Of a stretch of DNA of 64,000 bases, positions 6,737 through 63,218 are shown in pieces. Location of the stretch: sequence record ON286972, one strand, 5' to 3'. The position numbers and the translations under genes are program-made. Source of the stretch: Escherichia phage A4. A model generated the notes under the pieces. The model was given only the letters and a program-made list of their open reading frames with translations. It had not been told where the DNA came from and searched no databases. How positions within the stretch are numbered: the first letter of the stretch is position 1; the number at the start of each line of letters is the position of its first letter.

Positions 6737-7092
6737 GGGTCTTAACTATGACATACAATGAATACCGTGAAATAGATCTTCTCCAGAATACATTATATGA
6801 AATTGAAGATTTAATGCACGGATGGACAAGTCTTTCTTTCTTTAATGAAATGTTCGAAGAAATAAAAGTAGTACTACAGAAAAAACATAATGGTACTAAA
6901 ATTAAAATAAAGACTTTCACTGGAGAAGTCTGGTGCGGAGAAATTGTGAAATACATTATAACTCGCAATAACGCATCATTCTGTTTGAATACTGGTCATT
7001 ACAGAAATCATTTCAACAATAGCAGTACTCAAGTTATTTCCGAGGAAGAATACAATGAGCACTGTAATAAACTTCTTAAGAGTAGATTCTAA
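6718..7092 (+). CDS. hypothetical protein
   Basis: ORF-track ORF; alternative start ~6748. Confidence 0.4.
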   Translation: MLFQSLGVLTMTYNEYREIDLLQNTLYEIEDLMHGWTSLSFFNEMFEEIKVVLQKKHNGTKIKIKTFTGEVWCGEIVKYIITRNNASFCLNTGHYRNHFNNSSTQVISEEEYNEHCNKLLKSRF

Positions 7093-7418
7093 TGAATACT
7101 AAAATATATGTTTCTTCAAGTACAATGGGAAGTGGTTTTACTTATACGTGCTTTTTTACTACATTGAATAAAACACCTATATTGATTATTCGTGATTTCA
7201 ATGAATGTAATATTGAGTACGTATCCAAAACAGATAAGCTTCCTAATTACATCGAATGTGAATACATGGAGAACTATGAAAGTTTTATATTTCAGGAATC
7301 ATTAGTATGGGATAAAGAAATCGATTTCTTTATGTACCTTGCATTACAAAAGTACTACAGAGATAACAAGGACAAAATAGTTCGTTCTTGCATTTATTCT
7401 ATTAATCTGGAGTACTGA
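7092..7418 (+). CDS. hypothetical protein, FQxS-motif paralog family
   Basis: Motif FIFQESLVWDKE. Confidence 0.55.
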   Translation: MNTKIYVSSSTMGSGFTYTCFFTTLNKTPILIIRDFNECNIEYVSKTDKLPNYIECEYMENYESFIFQESLVWDKEIDFFMYLALQKYYRDNKDKIVRSCIYSINLEY

Positions 7419-7589
7419 TGCTTAAAAAAGAACAAATGGAATCATTAATGAATGCAGTTATTCGTCGTTTTGTTAAAGACATTAGTCATAAAAACTGTAT
7501 TACAAATGACAGGTACGGTATAGAATTGTATATAGCTAATATTCACATGGCGTACAGAGAATATATTAAGACACGTCACAGGGGTTGAA

Positions 7590-19133: not shown

Positions 19134-20542
19134 AAAGTAATTTAGAAAATATACGCAAAAAAGCCGATAATTTAGTACTATGTTGTATAGGGGCTTTATT
19201 TGCTGTTACTTTAGTTTCCGGTGTTGTTCATGGTAGTTTTATTATTGCACTTATCGGTGCAGTTTTATTATTAGTAATGCTAACTCCTTTACTATTTGTT
19301 GAAAGTAATGCATTCACTCGAACGTTATTAAGTATAAATGTGATGTGCTGGAGTGCGTTACTAATACATCTTGGCTTAGGGATGGTGGAATGGCACTTTA
19401 CAGTTTTTGTCTTTTTAAGTTTATTGATTGTATGGCGTGACTGGCGTTGTGTATTAGCAGGTTCAGTACTGATAGCAATACATCATTTATTATTTGGATT
19501 GTTGCAGGGTGCTGGAATTCCAATATTATTCGTGTTTTCTTTTCACCATATTTCGTTATGGCACATTATAGAGCACGCAATATATGTAGTAGTACAGGCA
19601 ATAGTTCTGATGTACGTTGCGTACATTATGGAGAAAGATGCAAATGAAGCAGATGAAATTCAACGAATTGCAAGATCAGTGAATTCTGAAGACGGCAATA
19701 TTACTTTAGAAATACAAAATAATCATTTCAACTCCGAATTTGCACAGACTTTTAGTAAAACAATATCAGCTATGCGTGAGGCAATTGAACAAGTACAAAT
19801 TACAGTTCAGTCAATGAAAAGCAACTCCTATCATCTCGAAAGTAAAAGTAATGATTTAGCTTTCAGAACTGAAACACAAGGACAGGCACTCACTCAAATC
19901 GCTGCTGCTATGGAAGAATTAAGTGCTACATCTGCAAATACATCTGATAACTCCAATACTGCAAAAAGTATGGTTAAAACTACAAAAGAATCCAGTACTA
20001 ATGCAATTGAAAGTATTAATAATTGCAAAGAGCAGATGAATAGAATTAAGGAAGATTCTAATGCTATAGTTGCTATACTCAAAAATATAGAAACTATTGC
20101 TTTCCAGACTAATATTCTTTCTTTAAATGCAAGCATTGAGGCTGCTAAAGCGGGTGAACATGGACGTGGATTCTCTGTTGTTGCACAGGAAGTTCGTAAC
20201 TTAGCAATGAAATGTGATACATGTAGTAAAGAAATTAAAGAAATCGTTGATAACTCCGTAAAAAACAACAACCAAGGAATTGAACAAATCAACGAGACAG
20301 CAAGTGATATTGATTCTATTGTAAAAAATGTTGATTCTCTCTTGCAGTTCATTGATGATTTAGCTATAATGGCTGAACAACAAAGTATTGCAATCCTTCA
20401 GGTCACTGAGAGTGTTAATATGATGGACCGTTCAGTACAGCAAAATGCGGAGCATGTCAAGGACACAATGCTGATGGTAGACAATCAACAGTCTGAAGTA
20501 CATGCTTTACAAAAAGCCACTTCGATTTTTAACGTGAAATAA
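19130..20542 (+). CDS. methyl-accepting chemotaxis protein-like membrane sensor
   Basis: C-terminal [37 protein letters not shown] matches the MCP signalling-domain core; N-terminal ~170 aa has 6-7 hydrophobic helices with paired His; TTG start with GGAG RBS. Confidence 0.85.
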
Positions 20543-32242: not shown

Positions 32243-33082
32243 ATGAAATTAAATTTTATTATCAACTTTAATGTTAAAGAAACCGATCATTACGCATCAG
32301 AAGATGACCGTGTTGCACCAGCTTCGTCTGAATACATCAGAAATGAAAATGTCCATATGCATGAAAATTATTTCGACTTTGGTAATTTTATTATCTACCG
32401 TGGATTTAAGGATGTTGTATTCCGTTCCAGATATGAAGACTTTGAACATGCACTCATTGATGTACCGGATGAATTAGTATTCCAGTTCATGTTACTTGGT
32501 ATTAAAGATTATGACTTTATAGTTTATAACCATTATACTAAGCGTATTATGATTGGTAATGATTCATATGATCTTACTTATTATTCCAGTACTGATGAAG
32601 ATTTAGAAAATATTAAACGCCGTTCTGGTGGTATACGTAATTGTTCATCTTCAAACTCCAGTAGAATGAGTGAAAGGTTTTTTGATTTCAAAAATAGCAA
32701 TAATAACGACTGTGAAGACGCGGACAATACTGAACATGTAATGTTTGAAATTGACCACAATAATGGATATAATGACTTCCTTAACGTTCTGAAGCCTTAT
32801 ATCAATCATAAATTCGTCAAAGATGTAAATCTGGTGGCACGTGACTTACAGTACAGTGATCGTACTGGTGGTATGCCTGTACCAATGGATCGTGTATGTA
32901 CGAACAATACAGTATTCAATGTCCCACGAGAAGATGTTGCATTTGTATTTCTGGCATTTTTGAATTCAGATGCACTATGGGACGATAATGAAAGACAATT
33001 TAGTTCAAGACATATTGAAATAATTCGTCAAAATACATTACTACTGTGGAAGAAATTTACTGAAAATACCCAGGACAAATAA
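32243..33082 (+). CDS. hypothetical protein
   Basis: 279-aa ORF; weak FQxS-like stretch ELVFQFMLLG. Confidence 0.5.
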   Translation: MKLNFIINFNVKETDHYASEDDRVAPASSEYIRNENVHMHENYFDFGNFIIYRGFKDVVFRSRYEDFEHALIDVPDELVFQFMLLGIKDYDFIVYNHYTKRIMIGNDSYDLTYYSSTDEDLENIKRRSGGIRNCSSSNSSRMSERFFDFKNSNNNDCEDADNTEHVMFEIDHNNGYNDFLNVLKPYINHKFVKDVNLVARDLQYSDRTGGMPVPMDRVCTNNTVFNVPREDVAFVFLAFLNSDALWDDNERQFSSRHIEIIRQNTLLLWKKFTENTQDK

Positions 33083-33103
33083 ATTCTTGGTGATATAATG
33101 ATG

Positions 33104-33137
33104 AGTGGCAATATATCTTTGTCACTCTTTTTTTTTT
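33104..33137 (+). terminator. rho-independent terminator
   Basis: Hairpin AGTGGCAA..TTGTCACT (one G-U) followed by T10. Confidence 0.55.
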
Positions 33138-33139
33138 AA

Positions 33140-33776
33140 TCCTGAAAGGTTCCATATGGAAATGATTAAGAGCCTAATCCACTCGAAAATGTAGAGGGTA
33201 GATGAGTAGTCCTTTCAGTACGAACAGCAGATGAAACCCGTCAGATGTGGGCATATTATGAACCCCTCACGGCAATGCGGCTGTATAAAGAACTCCGATA
33301 AGCACACAGAGAGTTCCTAGATAGACATATAAGGATCGCACCTTACCAGATTTGCTAAGGGAGATTTCATTAGAAATTGCGGTCAACTATTTGTACAAGA
33401 TAGTTGCGTCCAAAATTTGGTGAAATCAAATACCAGTACTGTTCATATGGTACTCGTATTATGTGTCGGGATGTTTAAGACCGACGACCGTTGCTACAAG
33501 AACCGCGATAGAGAGAAACAGAGCAACCCGCTTTCGCCTCGTTAAGAGAATTCGTGATATGAAATATGTGAAGACCACCAGCGTCAAATTTTAATTCTTT
33601 CCCCCAGTGGGGGGATGAAATATGCTCTTCCAAACCTCGTCAATATTAATTAAAACCATTTAGTACTATTAGAATTATTCAGAGCGTAGCGATGAATTAA
33701 TTCTACTGATGTTGATTGAGTGCTAACGAAATCAATATCGAGTACATTATTTGATGTTTCCTAAAAAGGAATAATA
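33140..33776. ncRNA. ORF-free, GC-enriched region with multiple stem-loops (candidate structured RNA or element remnant)
   Basis: No ORF of 60 aa or more on either strand across ~640 bp; hairpins such as CCCCC-agt-GGGGG and GTCGG..CCGAC; no tRNA T-loop consensus found. Confidence 0.25.
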
Positions 33777-34319
33777 ATGCCTGTATTTTCAAAGAACAAA
33801 ACAACAGAGATCATTTATAAATCAAAAGAATTTGAAGTACTAGAAGAATTTGATAGAGATTCATTTGATGGATATAAAATAGTAAAAGAAAAAGGAACTA
33901 TCAATCATATTGTTGAGTACATGGGAGGTGTAGAACTAGCAAAAATCACTTGTAGACCTACAAAAAACCCAGTAATTTTTTCTGTTCGCTATGGACATTA
34001 CGGAGAAGAGCGATATAATTCTAATACAGTATCAAGGAAATTCCATGTTGTAGATGGGAAATTAGAAGGGGAATCCAGACAATATAGTGTTCTTGGACTT
34101 CCTTTGTCAGTGAAGTACTTCCATCAAGGACATGATGTTACTATTGAAATTATGGATTTTATTGGGTTCAATGGTACAGTAGATGACTTCAACTTCTATG
34201 TATTAGCAGAAGATGAAGCATTCAATATAATGATGAAGTACGGTTCTAGATTTAAATTTTTATATGAGTACAACCTGGACAGTAAACTGTTCGATAATAT
34301 CTTACAGAACTGTCTATAA
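33777..34319 (+). CDS. hypothetical protein
   Basis: ORF-track ORF after the ORF-free region. Confidence 0.5.
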   Translation: MPVFSKNKTTEIIYKSKEFEVLEEFDRDSFDGYKIVKEKGTINHIVEYMGGVELAKITCRPTKNPVIFSVRYGHYGEERYNSNTVSRKFHVVDGKLEGESRQYSVLGLPLSVKYFHQGHDVTIEIMDFIGFNGTVDDFNFYVLAEDEAFNIMMKYGSRFKFLYEYNLDSKLFDNILQNCL

Positions 34320-34333
34320 TTAAAGGAAAATCA

Positions 34334-34948
34334 GTGATATATAATTTTGGTATTAATGACATTCCTGGCGACTCCATACCATCAAGTTTGGATTATCATA
34401 TATATGATAAATGGACTGGAATAATTAGGCGTTGCTATAGTCTTAAAAGAACTGATAAGAATTTATCATACATAAACACAACAGTTTGTGATGAATGGAA
34501 ATATTATTCCAATTTCAAAAAATGGTTTAAACTTCACTATATTGAGGGATATCAATTAGATAAAGATATAATTGGGGGAGATAAAGATATTTACTCACCT
34601 GAAACGTGTGCCTTTATACCTGGTTTAATTAACAGTTGTATAATTGACGGAAATAGAGGTAATAATTATATTGGTGTGTCGTATTTCAATGATGATAGGT
34701 GTTCCAAAAAATATAGACCTGCAATATGTAAATTTGGAAAACAAATACGAAACTTTGGGTTATTTCACACACCTGAAGAAGCTCATCAAGTATGGCAAAG
34801 GGAGAAAATAAAATATCTATATGAAATCATAGAAAAATACAGTTCTGTTGTCGATTTAAGAGTTATTAATGGAATAAAGCGTAGAATAGATATTTTACAA
34901 TATGATTTAGATAATGGTTTGATAACAGAAACAATAAGTAAAATTTAA
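34334..34948 (+). CDS. homing-endonuclease-associated DNA-binding protein (intact paralog)
   Basis: Motifs W..IIRRCYS, VCDEW, LDKDI..YSPETCAF typical of a phage family usually annotated as HNH/AP2 homing endonuclease; GTG start. Confidence 0.5.
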   Translation: MIYNFGINDIPGDSIPSSLDYHIYDKWTGIIRRCYSLKRTDKNLSYINTTVCDEWKYYSNFKKWFKLHYIEGYQLDKDIIGGDKDIYSPETCAFIPGLINSCIIDGNRGNNYIGVSYFNDDRCSKKYRPAICKFGKQIRNFGLFHTPEEAHQVWQREKIKYLYEIIEKYSSVVDLRVINGIKRRIDILQYDLDNGLITETISKI

Positions 34949-62413: not shown

Positions 62414-62449
62414 ATACTTTCCTTTATAAATTGTATTGTAGTGTTATAT

Positions 62450-62457
62450 TATTTATA
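62450..62457 (-). promoter_or_regulatory. T4 late-promoter-like TATAAATA box
   Basis: Reverse complement of + strand TATTTATA, ~40 nt upstream of the Big_2 start. Confidence 0.35.
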
Positions 62458-62481
62458 TTATACCAAAAGTATTTTAGGATT

Positions 62482-62503
62482 AAAAAAGGAGTCCGAAGAC
62501 TCC
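62482..62503 (-). terminator. rho-independent terminator for the upstream minus-strand gene
   Basis: Stem GGAGTC-cgaa-GACTCC with A6 on + strand (T-run on minus) just 3' of the gene ending at 62517. Confidence 0.55.
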
Positions 62504-62516
62504 TTAAAATATAAAG

Positions 62517-63020
62517 TTATTGGAAACGAGCATACGGTGGAAATCTGGTTTGGTCAGGCCAATCTTTCGGAGAGAAGTAAGCAGTGAATTGCATTTTATC
62601 ATTTGAATAAAGAACAAAATCATCTGGCTTTATTATAACTTTAGACAACGAATTTGGCTCCACGTTCGTTCTTCTGAAAATTATTTCACCATTATGTAAT
62701 TTTATTTTATTACTTTGATATTGAATACCAAAACCATACTTATTATTAATAGCATCAGCTTCTTTTATGCAAAATGTATTATTTGCTAAAGATTTAGCAA
62801 TTTCAGCATCGTCATCATCATACTACAATGTTGATTTATCTTTATTTCTACCTGTGATTTTTATCTTGAAATTTTCAGATATTAAATCATATGAATCGAA
62901 TGTTCTTTGTTTTATAACATACAATTCTTTAACAAATACTTGCCCTTCTATCTTTGCAGCAGTAACCTGCAATCCACCTATAACAAATGGAAATTGATCT
63001 AAGCCAGCTATTGGTTTCAT
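62517..63020 (-). pseudogene. paralog of Big_2 N-terminal domain, interrupted by in-frame amber (TAG) codon
   Basis: Track ORF 62823..63020 stops at TAG (+ strand 62823-62825); same frame continues to TAA at 62517-62519 and stays collinear with paralog 59813..60187 across the stop. Confidence 0.55.
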
Positions 63021-63154
63021 AACATCTCCTTACCTTAAAAATGGGATTGTAAACTGCCTCCCAATATGATACCATAGTTCAAATGGTCAATTGGTAAATC
63101 AATGAACTTAACAAAAACACTTGATACTACAGTCATAATTGTTCAGTTTTGCAC

Positions 63155-63183
63155 TTGACATAATTGATCAATTATTGTACTAT
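63155..63183 (+). promoter_or_regulatory. sigma70-like promoter (TTGACA-17-TACTAT)
   Basis: Hexamers in divergent intergenic region upstream of 63219. Confidence 0.35.
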
Positions 63184-63218
63184 TATTTATGTTCCTTAAC
63201 TCAAATCCGAGGTAATCA

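What the first reader, a model, noticed from the sequence alone, without database searches (positions are those of the whole stretch)
33090..33776. A ~640-bp ORF-free, GC-richer structured region flanked by homing-endonuclease-like genes
Intergenic spacers elsewhere in the window are mostly under 60 bp, yet this stretch has no ORF of 60 aa or more on either strand. It is visibly richer in G+C than the surrounding coding DNA and contains several stable stem-loops (CCCCC-agt-GGGGG; GTCGG-n11-CCGAC; GTTGCT..AGCAAC; CAACTAT..ATAGTTG). It begins just after a strong terminator (T10) and a TGnTATAAT-like element at ~33091. I could not find tRNA T-loop or anticodon-arm signatures, nor group I or II intron core motifs. 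Candidates are a phage small-RNA locus, a ribozyme or intron remnant, or cargo of a mobile element.
Basis: seen in the sequence. Interest (0 to 1): 0.6.

Follow-up and report, generated by a model that had tools for sequence, protein, structure and literature searches.

The report
New large structured phage RNA gene
The ORF-free stretch is a stand-alone gene for a ~510-nt, heavily pseudoknotted non-coding RNA from a family I could not find described; every Rak2/121Q-like jumbo phage keeps four copies, and it also occurs in prophages and genomic islands of enterobacteria, including E. coli.

Summary
Window 33083-33776 is the largest ORF-free gap in the window (694 bp; median gap 26.5 bp) and is G+C-rich (42% against 34%). 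It is not junk, an intron or a tRNA locus. Positions ~33140-33650 (+) encode one member of a large structured-RNA family.

- **Structure:** on 58 non-redundant relatives, a 21-helix model with four pseudoknotted helices is 90.6% paired, against 72.5% in shuffles and ~40% in slid controls. Of 109 pairs, 85 change on both sides.
- **Strand and transcription:** the excess of G-U over A-C pairs fixes the + strand. 50 of 58 members carry their own extended -10 promoter.
- **Copy number:** jumbo phages hold four ancient paralogs, each with unrelated neighbouring genes.
- **Wider range:** members lie next to integrase/CI genes in enterobacterial prophages and in an E. coli island. A variant sharing the 3' core occurs on metagenome contigs, one with T4-like genes.
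- **Prior knowledge:** no Rfam 15 family, tRNA or tmRNA matches, and no paper found describes it.

The function is unknown. My best reading is a trans-acting structured RNA used in phage-host conflict. The flanking genes are not homing endonucleases, apart from a truncated HNH gene one gene downstream.

The parts
33072..33099 (+). Sigma-70-type promoter with an extended -10 box (AGGACA, 16-nt spacer, TG-n-TATAAT)
   Evidence: 10 of 12 consensus matches with TG before the -10; 50 of 58 family members have TGnTAYAMT within 90 nt upstream of helix P1, and 57 of 58 have a -10 hexamer.
33103..33137 (+). Hairpin plus T10: intrinsic terminator of the upstream gene, placed between the promoter and the RNA body. 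The predicted start site (~33105-07, inferred) falls inside its 5' arm.
   Evidence: 9-pair stem 33103-33127 followed by T10. The same promoter-hairpin-T-run-RNA order is seen in the orthologous copies of GAP32 (terminator annotated there), Yen9-04 and CBB.
33140..33650 (+). Conserved body of the large structured RNA (extent conserved across the family)
   Evidence: BLAST: 86-92% identity in Asteriusvirus and 66-74% in other genera. nhmmer E = 1.9e-144. Covariation on alignment A1. CM R1 scores the 3' core at 136 bits, E = 3e-26, and finds only one copy in the window.
33142..33344 (+). 5' domain. Helices: P1 33142-49/33211-18; hp1 33150-53/33158-61; Hb 33174-84/33194-201; Hc 33224-28/33280-84; Hd 33238-41/33269-72; Hf 33290-95/33311-16; Hg 33331-34/33341-44. 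Pseudoknots: 'mini' 33207-08/33219-20 and PK1 33275-77/33326-28.
   Evidence: Hc, PK1 and mini are 100% paired, Hd 99.6%, Hf 93.7%, Hb 93.4%, P1 83.4%. Most pairs change on both sides.
33345..33428 (+). Linker with the conserved stretch UAAGGGAG (AAGGGA invariant; 33355-62), then a variable arm closed by Hh 33363-69/33421-27 that contains Hv 33385-90/33400-05
   Evidence: One search lists the invariant columns; the outer part of Hh is 97% paired, while its inner part (48.5% paired) and Hv (62.4%) are poorly conserved. This arm is shortened or missing in several members.
33429..33644 (+). 3' domain, the most conserved part. Helices: Hi 33429-40/33449-60, whose loop 33442-47 pairs with 33558-63 (PK2); Hj 33465-69/33481-85; Hl 33504-08/33552-56; Hm 33511-15/33531-35; Hk 33490-94/33523-27, which crosses Hl and Hm; Hn 33538-40/33546-48; Hp 33570-74/33581-85; H3' 33600-05/33610-15.
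   Evidence: PK2 is 99.7% paired with 6 of 6 pairs covarying; Hk and Hm 100%; Hl 99%; Hn 96.6%. This domain is shared with the type B relatives and with K64-1.
33576..33587 (+). Repeat motif, copy 1 (ACCACCAGCGUCAA)
   Evidence: it changes in step with copy 2. Examples are C/C or U/U at one position, CGACAA in L071, CUUCAA in K64-1 and CGAAG in type B.
33632..33643 (+). Repeat motif, copy 2 (AAACCUCGUCAA), at the end of family-wide conservation
   Evidence: A search for a pairing partner was inconclusive.
33651..33776 (+). Lineage-specific 3' tail with local hairpins, and the ribosome-binding site of gene 33777-34319. The 3' end of the RNA is not defined.
   Evidence: This part is conserved only within Asteriusvirus (alignments run to query position 686). 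In other genera the match ends at about query 560-588, that is 33649-33677. No terminator-like site was found here.

Best explanation
Window ~33140-33650 (+) is a stand-alone gene for a large (~510 nt conserved; family range ~490-620 nt), compactly folded, multi-pseudoknotted non-coding RNA. I could not find the family described anywhere.

Shown:
- The sequence is conserved across all Rak2/121Q-like jumbo phages, and more strongly than the flanking genes.
- About 20 helices, four of them pseudoknotted or long-range, are maintained by compensatory changes, and the pairing fits only the + strand.
- Almost every copy has its own extended -10 promoter.
- Each jumbo genome keeps four paralogs that diverged before the phage genera did.
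- The neighbouring genes differ from copy to copy.
- Members also sit in enterobacterial prophages (between an integrase or serine recombinase gene and the CI repressor gene), in genomic islands, and, as a variant sharing the 3' core, on metagenome contigs, one of which carries T4-like genes.

Inferred:
- Host sigma-70 RNA polymerase transcribes it from 33072-33099.
- In this copy the start site lies inside the 5' arm of the upstream gene's terminator, so promoter-initiated transcripts may escape that terminator.
- The RNA folds into a 5' domain and a 3' domain. The 3' domain is locked by the Hk/Hl/Hm pseudoknot and by the Hi-loop pairing (PK2).

Proposed function: it acts in trans on a target that is conserved in the host rather than encoded by the phage, since no phage protein travels with it. 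My best guess (about 40%) is that it serves as a binding scaffold or RNA particle used in phage-host or phage-phage conflict. That is the kind of accessory function typically found at the int/cI edge of prophages and in islands. The two co-varying repeat motifs would then be paired binding sites.
For: Anatomy and chance:
- It is the largest ORF-free gap in the window and a G+C outlier.
- The longest stop-to-stop ORF on the + strand across members has a median of 54 aa.

Conservation:
- 61-79 phage records match, at 86-92% identity in Escherichia jumbo phages against ~80% for the flanking coding DNA, and 66-74% in Yersinia, Salmonella, Erwinia, Xanthomonas, Serratia, Cronobacter and Pectobacterium phages.
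- Klebsiella K64-1 has a divergent copy at the syntenic site.

Copy number:
- There are four copies in EC22.5-2, at 89.9, 143.4, 223.2 and 333.3 kb, all in ORF-poor gaps with unrelated flanking proteins.
- There are also four in 121Q, GAP32 and BF.
- The NJ tree shows four paralog lineages, each spanning several genera.

Structure:
- Of 109 pairs, 90.6% of cells are paired, against 72.5 +/- 0.3% in shuffles (0 of 500 reach it) and 38-42% when partners are slid.
- 85 pairs change on both sides, and the covariation score is 0.460 against 0.165 and 0.07-0.115 (an independent mutual-information scan is).
- There are 386 G-U cells against 116 A-C cells.

Transcription signals.

Not cis-linked to any gene: the copy-3 downstream gene is on the opposite strand, and in prophages the RNA converges on cI.

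Wider range: eight bacterial assemblies carry it, including the complete Serratia fonticola chromosome. So does an E. coli LR-29-1 island between ffs and ybaA, and 65 metagenome loci. The type B variant is on metagenome contigs, one with T4-like portal and baseplate genes.

No protein is shared between the islands or prophages and the jumbo phage near the RNA.
Against: - There is no direct evidence of transcription, of transcript ends or of function.
- The single-sequence folding energy is not exceptional (z = -1.72).
- In this copy a strong terminator lies between the promoter and the RNA, so expression may be low or may depend on read-through.
- No terminator follows the RNA in the window. 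It could be co-transcribed with gene 33777-34319.
- About half of the members carry a terminator-like hairpin with a U-run inside the conserved body, which the simple 'one long RNA' picture does not explain.
- The 'scaffold in conflict' function rests only on genomic context.
- The shuffle control ignores phylogeny, although the slid controls, which keep it, agree.
- The structure was partly derived from these same sequences.
Confidence: 0.85

Rival explanations
1. It is a ribozyme: a catalytic RNA that cleaves or ligates itself or a trans substrate. This would be a sub-case of the structured-RNA gene with a different mechanism. The invariant Hk/Hl/Hm pseudoknot core (GACCGUUG...AGAAAC...CAACCCGC) would form the active site.
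For: The size, the ~85 invariant nucleotides and the multiple pseudoknots and long-range pairs resemble large ribozymes. No protein partner is conserved next to it. The 3' core is retained in all subtypes while the 5' domain is replaced.
Against: No ribozyme family in Rfam matches, even at permissive thresholds. No conserved cleavage-site signature or processing junction is visible. I could test nothing catalytic.
Confidence: 0.2
2. It is a cis-acting leader, a giant riboswitch- or attenuator-like element that controls the downstream gene 33777-34319 (phrog_16210) and the Dam methyltransferase / cytidylyltransferase genes behind it.
For: This paralog has the same downstream genes in 121Q, GAP32, Yen9-04 and K64-1. 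No terminator separates the RNA from gene 33777. Some members have internal terminator-like hairpins that could act as expression platforms.
Against: The other three paralogs, the prophage copies and the island copies have unrelated downstream genes, or genes on the opposite strand. Conservation ends ~125 nt before the start codon, and that spacer is lineage-specific.
Confidence: 0.05
3. It is a remnant or ORF-less form of a mobile self-splicing intron, or another RNA-based mobile element.
For: The family is found at many unrelated loci and has moved between jumbo phages and bacterial islands. A truncated HNH endonuclease gene lies 558 bp downstream. A zinc-finger endonuclease-like gene lies upstream of copy 3 in EC22.5-2; that reading is by eye.
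Against: No group I or group II intron model matches. There are no interrupted exons, because the flanking ORFs are complete. Each copy has its own promoter. The four paralogs are old and syntenic rather than recently inserted. The order of helices does not follow the P3-P9 core of group I introns or the six-domain plan of group II; that is my reading of the structure.
Confidence: 0.04
4. It works at the DNA level (replication origin, packaging or recombination site, or a promoter cluster), or it is decayed coding sequence.
For: There are several dispersed copies per genome, all on one strand. Several public annotations place small 'hypothetical proteins' on it.
Against: Pairing is kept through G-U wobbles far more often than through A-C (386 against 116). 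That fits an RNA of the + strand, not duplex DNA. The helices include long-range pseudoknots with compensatory changes. No reading frame is conserved: the longest-ORF median is 54 aa and indels are frequent.
Confidence: 0.03

Closest known systems
GOLLD and ROOL RNAs (large 'ornate' RNAs of phages and prophages; Rfam RF01998 and RF03087; cryo-EM in PMC12286853)
   Same: These are also non-coding RNAs several hundred nucleotides long, with many conserved helices and pseudoknots. They are carried by phages and prophages as stand-alone genes without a dedicated protein partner, and their function is unknown.
   Different: There is no sequence or structure match to either model. The hosts here are Gammaproteobacteria, not Firmicutes or lake and rumen bacteria (the usual GOLLD/ROOL hosts are from my own knowledge). 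The element is not next to tRNA genes: the nearest cluster is 12 kb away. There are four ancient paralogs per genome. Whether it forms oligomers is untested.
The four RNA-seq-defined 'putative lncRNAs' of Pseudomonas jumbo phage PA5oct (PMC7318152), a distant relative of the Rak2/121Q group
   Same: They lie in a related jumbo phage. They are four ORF-free, + strand, independently transcribed RNAs of 236-619 nt with unknown function, and two of them are highly expressed.
   Different: They match neither the family HMM nor the 3' core covariance model, and they lack all signature motifs. They are at best functional analogues.
Group I and group II self-splicing introns of phages
   Same: They are large pseudoknotted RNAs found in phage genomes, often near homing endonuclease genes.
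   Different: No model matches, there are no exons, each copy has its own promoter, and the helix order differs.
Bacterial RNase P RNA and tmRNA
   Same: They have a similar size range (350-400 nt) and long-range pseudoknots, and they act in trans.
   Different: ARAGORN finds no tmRNA. No Rfam RNase P or tmRNA model matches. The conserved RNase P P4 sequences and the tRNA-like ends of tmRNA are absent; that is my reading of the sequence.
Guide or scaffold RNAs of mobile elements (HEARO/omega RNA of IscB and TnpB, retron msr-msd, IS110 bridge RNA)
   Same: They are structured RNAs carried by mobile elements and islands.
   Different: Those RNAs always sit beside their protein gene (IscB, TnpB, reverse transcriptase or recombinase). 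Here the neighbours differ at every copy, and no protein is shared between the islands and the jumbo phage next to the RNA. There is no Rfam match.

Membership tests
tRNA / tmRNA | Cloverleaf or tRNA-like domain detectable by ARAGORN | tested here: not met
   no genes in the whole window.
Any Rfam 15 family (including group I and II introns, RNase P, 6S, GOLLD, ROOL, HEARO, OLE, raiA and riboswitches) | Covariance-model score at or above the family's gathering threshold | tested here: not met
   no hits in the window at gathering thresholds; at E up to 10 there are only six sub-threshold chance-level hits, of which the three with E below 3 lie on the promoter/terminator stretch, and none is to a large RNA family; no hit on nine homologous loci at E up to 0.1.
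Self-splicing intron | Interrupts a gene, so that flanking exons restore one reading frame | tested here: not met
   The upstream ORF ends with TAA at 33080-82. The downstream ORF starts at 33777 with its own ribosome-binding site. Each of the two matches a complete PHROG family.
Cis-regulatory leader / riboswitch | Constant association with, and same-strand position upstream of, one gene family | tested here: not met
   The four paralogs and the prophage and island copies have unrelated or opposite-strand downstream genes.
Large ornate phage/prophage RNAs (GOLLD/ROOL-like kind, not family) | More than 400 nt, with many helices supported by covariation, including pseudoknots | tested here: met
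   21 helices and 109 pairs, 85 of them with changes on both sides; four helices are pseudoknotted.
Large ornate phage/prophage RNAs (GOLLD/ROOL-like kind, not family) | Carried by phages and prophages as a stand-alone gene | tested here: met
Large ornate phage/prophage RNAs (GOLLD/ROOL-like kind, not family) | Frequent adjacency to tRNA genes | tested here: not met
   no tRNA in the window; the only tRNA cluster of EC22.5-2 lies 12 kb from the nearest copy.
Large ornate phage/prophage RNAs (GOLLD/ROOL-like kind, not family) | Homo-oligomeric RNA-only assembly | not testable with these tools
   This needs SEC-MALS, native gels or cryo-EM.
PA5oct lncRNA001-004 | Sequence or structure homology to the RNA-seq-defined transcripts | tested here: not met
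   no HMM hit, no covariance-model hit (best E of 4 or more), and no signature motifs.
The family defined here (window copy as a member) | Full-length match to the family HMM and to the 3' core covariance model, with the helices preserved | tested here: met
   E = 1.9e-144; 136 bits, E = 2.9e-26. The window sequence was part of both models, so this is partly circular. Independent support comes from 72-76% identity to the three paralogs of EC22.5-2.

The most novel reading that the evidence does not exclude
This is a new class of large functional RNA, either a ribozyme or an RNA-only or RNP particle comparable to ROOL and GOLLD, that phages of Gammaproteobacteria use against a conserved host target or defence. 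Four sub-functionalised paralogs would be kept in every Rak2-like jumbo phage, with single copies traded among prophages, islands and uncultured phages. Because it occurs in E. coli phages and in an E. coli island, it would be the first such RNA that can be studied directly by E. coli genetics.
Probability: 0.35. Interest if true: 0.9.

Novelty: new variant of a known kind. Interest (0 to 1): 0.78.

Why it matters
Large, intricately folded bacterial and phage RNAs of unknown function, such as OLE, GOLLD, ROOL and raiA, are a long-standing puzzle. Most live in organisms that are hard to manipulate. This family has comparable structural complexity, with about 20 helices, four or more pseudoknots and ~85 invariant nucleotides. 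It sits in cultured E. coli, Salmonella, Klebsiella, Yersinia and Erwinia jumbo phages and in an E. coli genomic island. Knock-outs, pull-downs, structure probing and cryo-EM are therefore all feasible.

Every jumbo phage has retained four paralogs since before the genera split, which argues for an important and possibly diversified role. The family also corrects annotation: many public records call tiny 'hypothetical proteins' across these loci. Finally, it could be submitted to Rfam as a new family.

Tried and rejected
- **tRNA, tmRNA and Rfam.** Scans of the window and of nine homologous loci found nothing.
- **Extra copies in the window.** Neither BLAST nor the covariance model finds one; there is only one copy here.
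- **PA5oct's four RNA-seq ncRNAs as homologues.** Rejected by the HMM, by motif search and by the covariance model.
- **A conserved protein partner.** The flanking proteins of the four paralogs are unrelated. The neighbours shared among prophages are only int, cI and cro-type genes. tblastn of the island and prophage ORFs against a whole jumbo genome gave only a DUF4326 protein, 13 kb from a copy.
- **A link to RNA-repair genes.** The DUF6267 protein next to a type B copy shows no significant similarity to GAP32 RnlA.
- **Adjacency to tRNA genes.** Not seen.
- **Plasmids.** No match in PLSDB.
- **A pairing partner for repeat motif 2.** The best recurring candidate is the invariant GAUGAG at 33201-06, but the L071, K64-1 and type B variants do not support it.
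- **Thermodynamic stability as evidence.** Weak.
- **Literature.** Six full-text searches, including searches for the signature sequences, and three papers read found no description of the family. The supplement of the 10,006-csRNA catalogue (PMC10690425) is not held, so I could not check whether an anonymous entry there overlaps.
Full report
**1.
Between the stop codon of ORF 32243-33082 and the start of ORF 33777-34319 there is no ORF longer than 52 aa on either strand. This 694-bp stretch is the largest one without an ORF of 60 aa or more in the 64-kb window. The next largest is 353 bp and the median gap is 26.5 bp. G+C of 33140-33650 is 0.421, against 0.337 for the window, and only 0.9% of same-size windows reach that value. 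A TG-extended -10 promoter (AGGACA-16-TGATATAAT, 33072-33099) and a strong intrinsic terminator (33103-33127 plus T10) lie at the left edge. ARAGORN finds no tRNA or tmRNA in the window. Rfam 15 finds nothing at gathering thresholds in the whole window, and only chance-level hits at E up to 10 in 32900-33900.

**2. The window is a Rak2/121Q-like jumbo phage, and the gap is its best-conserved DNA.**
Around the gap, the window is ~80% identical to Escherichia phages 121Q, PBECO4, phAPEC6 and relatives (Asteriusvirus). The gap itself is 86-92% identical to them. It also matches, at 66-74% over ~480 nt, jumbo phages of Yersinia (fHe-Yen9-04), Salmonella (7t3, Munch), Erwinia, Xanthomonas (XbC2, XaC1), Serratia (BF), Cronobacter (GAP32) and Pectobacterium (CBB). 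Klebsiella K64-1 and RaK2 hold a more divergent copy.

The site is syntenic. It follows a ~270-aa protein and a terminator, and precedes a ~180-aa protein, a Dam-type methyltransferase and a cytidylyltransferase. No record annotates an RNA there. Several call tiny 'hypothetical proteins' over it.

**3. It is a multi-copy gene family.**
BLAST reported 4-5 matching places per genome. I assembled the unannotated genome of phage EC22.5-2 and found four copies, all on the + strand, at 89.9, 143.4, 223.2 and 333.3 kb. They are 72-76% identical to the window copy. All four lie in ORF-poor gaps, and their flanking proteins are unrelated to one another.

Three pattern scans of IMG/VR gave about 50 loci, all from 350-380-kb jumbo contigs or fragments of them. 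121Q, GAP32 and BF also have four copies each. A neighbour-joining tree resolves four paralog lineages, each containing several genera. The duplications therefore predate the split of the genera, and all four have been kept since. The window copy groups with the syntenic copies of 121Q, GAP32, Yen9-04 and CBB. The window itself holds only this one copy.

**4. The family reaches beyond jumbo phages.**
One pattern scan of 185,579 species-representative genomes found eight bacterial assemblies with near full-length members (nhmmer E from 1e-83 to 1e-91). They are Buttiauxella, Silvania, Enterobacter chinensis, two Serratia (one of them the complete S. fonticola chromosome), two unnamed Enterobacteriaceae, and one 2.8-kb 'Clostridium' MAG contig that may be mis-binned.

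In these genomes the RNA sits at the edge of integrated elements. In four of the loci a CI-like S24 repressor gene lies beside the RNA, three of them followed by a cro-like gene, with an integrase or large serine recombinase gene on the RNA's other side in several. In S. fonticola the order is serine recombinase, two ParB-like genes and the RNA, next to the host genes rof and tilS.

Two of 5,426 complete E. coli genomes carry it. In strain LR-29-1 a full-length copy (E = 2e-125) lies in a 1.4-kb unannotated gap of an island inserted between ffs and ybaA. In the tree that copy nests inside one jumbo-phage paralog group, which points to horizontal transfer.

The metagenome scan gave 65 more loci. 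Nine of these form a 'type B' subgroup. It keeps the 3' domain but has a different 5' domain. It is also preceded by TGTTATAAT, and one of its contigs carries T4-like portal and baseplate genes. A third, still more divergent variant (L095) retains only the core. No plasmid in PLSDB matches.

**5. It is a structured RNA of the + strand.**
I aligned 58 members that are less than 96% identical to each other (alignment A1). An unbiased mutual-information scan recovered stacked covarying pairs. From these I wrote a 21-helix model and tested it.

| Measure | Model | Shuffled control | Partners slid by 1-3 columns |
|---|---|---|---|
| Cells forming standard pairs | 90.6% | 72.5 +/- 0.3% (0 of 500 reach it) | 38-42% |
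| Pairs (of 109) changed on both sides | 85 | 65.5 | 41-47 |
| Cells with double changes | 1,062 | 316 | 156-221 |
| Covariation score | 0.460 | 0.165 | 0.07-0.115 |

Four helices are pseudoknots or long-range contacts, and all are essentially always paired:
- 'mini', 33207-08/33219-20: 100% paired, with three pair types.
- PK1, 33275-77/33326-28: 100% paired.
- PK2, the loop of hairpin Hi (33442-47) with 33558-63: 99.7% paired, and 6 of 6 pairs covary.
- Hk, 33490-94/33523-27: 100% paired. It crosses Hl (33504-08/33552-56, 99%) and Hm (33511-15/33531-35, 100%).

G-U cells outnumber A-C cells by 386 to 116, so the pairing belongs to an RNA of the + strand, not to duplex DNA or to the opposite strand. 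No reading frame is conserved: the longest + strand ORF has a median of 54 aa, and indels are frequent. The folding energy of the single sequence is unremarkable (z = -1.72 and -0.57). The case therefore rests on comparative evidence.

A covariance model of the 3' core (155 positions, 23 pairs) scores the window copy at 136 bits, K64-1 at 113 bits and L095 at 56 bits. Nothing else in the window scores better than E = 0.2.

**6. It is an independent gene, not a leader.**
50 of 58 members have TGnTAYAMT within 90 nt upstream of the first helix, and 57 of 58 have a -10 hexamer. The downstream genes differ among paralogs and contexts. Some lie on the opposite strand: the downstream gene of copy 3, and cI in the prophages.

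In the window copy and its orthologues, the terminator of the upstream gene sits between the promoter and the RNA. The predicted start site falls within the 5' arm of that hairpin, so promoter-initiated transcripts might not form it. This is inference. Family-wide conservation ends near 33650. The remaining 125 nt are conserved only within Asteriusvirus and contain no terminator-like site. The 3' end is therefore unknown.

**7. What it is not.**
- It matches no Rfam family, either in the window or in nine homologous loci.
- It is not an intron: the flanking ORFs are complete, each copy has its own promoter, and the helix order differs.
- It is not associated with tRNA genes.
- It is not linked to any protein gene.
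- It is not the PA5oct lncRNA family. PA5oct is a distant relative with four RNA-seq-defined ncRNAs (PMC7318152), but none of them matches the HMM, the covariance model or the signature motifs.
The immediate neighbours belong to PHROGs of unknown function and have no Pfam hit. Only 34334-34948, one gene further downstream and absent at this site in 121Q, matches the C-terminal half of HNH endonucleases.

**8. How it probably works.**
The following points are shown:
- It is a compact two-domain RNA with an invariant pseudoknotted 3' core.
- Each copy has its own promoter.
- Four ancient paralogs are kept in each jumbo genome.
- The gene has moved horizontally into prophage int/cI borders and into islands.
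- It has no dedicated protein partner.

From these I infer that it acts in trans on something the host supplies. Its positions in temperate elements are those typical of accessory, exclusion or defence genes. My best guess is a binding scaffold or RNA particle used in phage-host or phage-phage conflict (about 40%). A ribozyme is second (about 20%).

One feature is odd and unexplained. Two 10-12-nt motifs, 33576-87 and 33632-43, keep the same sequence as each other whenever they change. Examples are C/C or U/U at one position, CGACAA in both copies in L071, CUUCAA in both in K64-1, and CGAAG in both in type B. This suggests either two equivalent binding sites for one partner or alternative pairings. 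I found no convincing partner for the second copy.

A second unexplained point is that about half of the members carry a terminator-like hairpin with a U-run inside the conserved body.

**9. Novelty.**
Six full-text searches, including searches for the signature sequences, and the jumbo-phage genome papers I read mention nothing of this kind. PGAP leaves the E. coli locus unannotated.

The family may be hidden as an anonymous entry in the 10,006-motif viral catalogue (PMC10690425), which I could not check. That paper does mention candidates upstream of DNA N-6-adenine methyltransferase genes.

I rate it as a new family within a known kind, the large structured phage and prophage RNAs of unknown function. 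Interest is high because the hosts are genetically tractable.

Noticed in passing
window 34334-34948 (+): A 204-aa ORF matches only the C-terminal half of HNH homing endonucleases (phrog_953 positions 198-402 of 420, E = 1e-64). No gene sits at this position in 121Q, where the phrog_16210 homologue is followed directly by the methyltransferase. It looks like a lineage-specific, probably truncated, homing-endonuclease insertion.
   Followed up: partly
window 62414-62766 (also 63021-63195): This is the second-largest ORF-free stretch in the window (353 bp). It contains a bidirectional terminator-like hairpin, AAAAAAGGAGTCCGAAGACTCCTTAAAA, near 62484-62510. There is no Rfam or tRNA hit. The rest may be a decayed minus-strand gene.
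   Followed up: no
L062 (K64-1) 1413-2068; L003 (Yen9-04) 20032-20513; several Escherichia and Salmonella phage records: Public annotations place ORFs of 23-70 aa labelled 'hypothetical protein' (up to five per locus) across the RNA gene. These are very probably false gene calls.
   Followed up: partly
L140 (E. coli LR-29-1, NZ_AP027515.1) 6955-7563: A full-length family member lies in a 1.4-kb unannotated gap of a ~10-kb island between ffs and ybaA. The island also carries an IS3, an integrase fragment, and DUF4326, DUF488 and dual-OB genes. About 700 nt of the gap downstream of the RNA remain unexplained.
   Followed up: partly
L086, L092, L099, L117-L119, L126, L127, L138 (metagenome contigs); L095: A 'type B' subfamily shares the 3' core but has a different 5' domain, and one of its contigs carries T4-like portal and baseplate genes. 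In L119 it directly follows a DUF6267 protein that has a KFDGA stretch resembling ligase motif I. L095 is a third, more divergent variant.
   Followed up: partly
L063-L066 (Pseudomonas phage PA5oct ncRNA001-004): PA5oct also has four ORF-free lncRNA loci detected by RNA-seq, two of them highly expressed, but they are unrelated in sequence and core structure to this family. They may be a functional analogue worth comparing.
   Followed up: yes
EC22.5-2 genome 130356-130673 (L006) and L140 9997-10590: A DUF4326 protein is shared (41% identity over 109 aa) between the E. coli island that carries the RNA and the jumbo phage. It lies 13 kb from paralog 2. It is the only protein shared between the two contexts, and the match is probably coincidental.
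   Followed up: no
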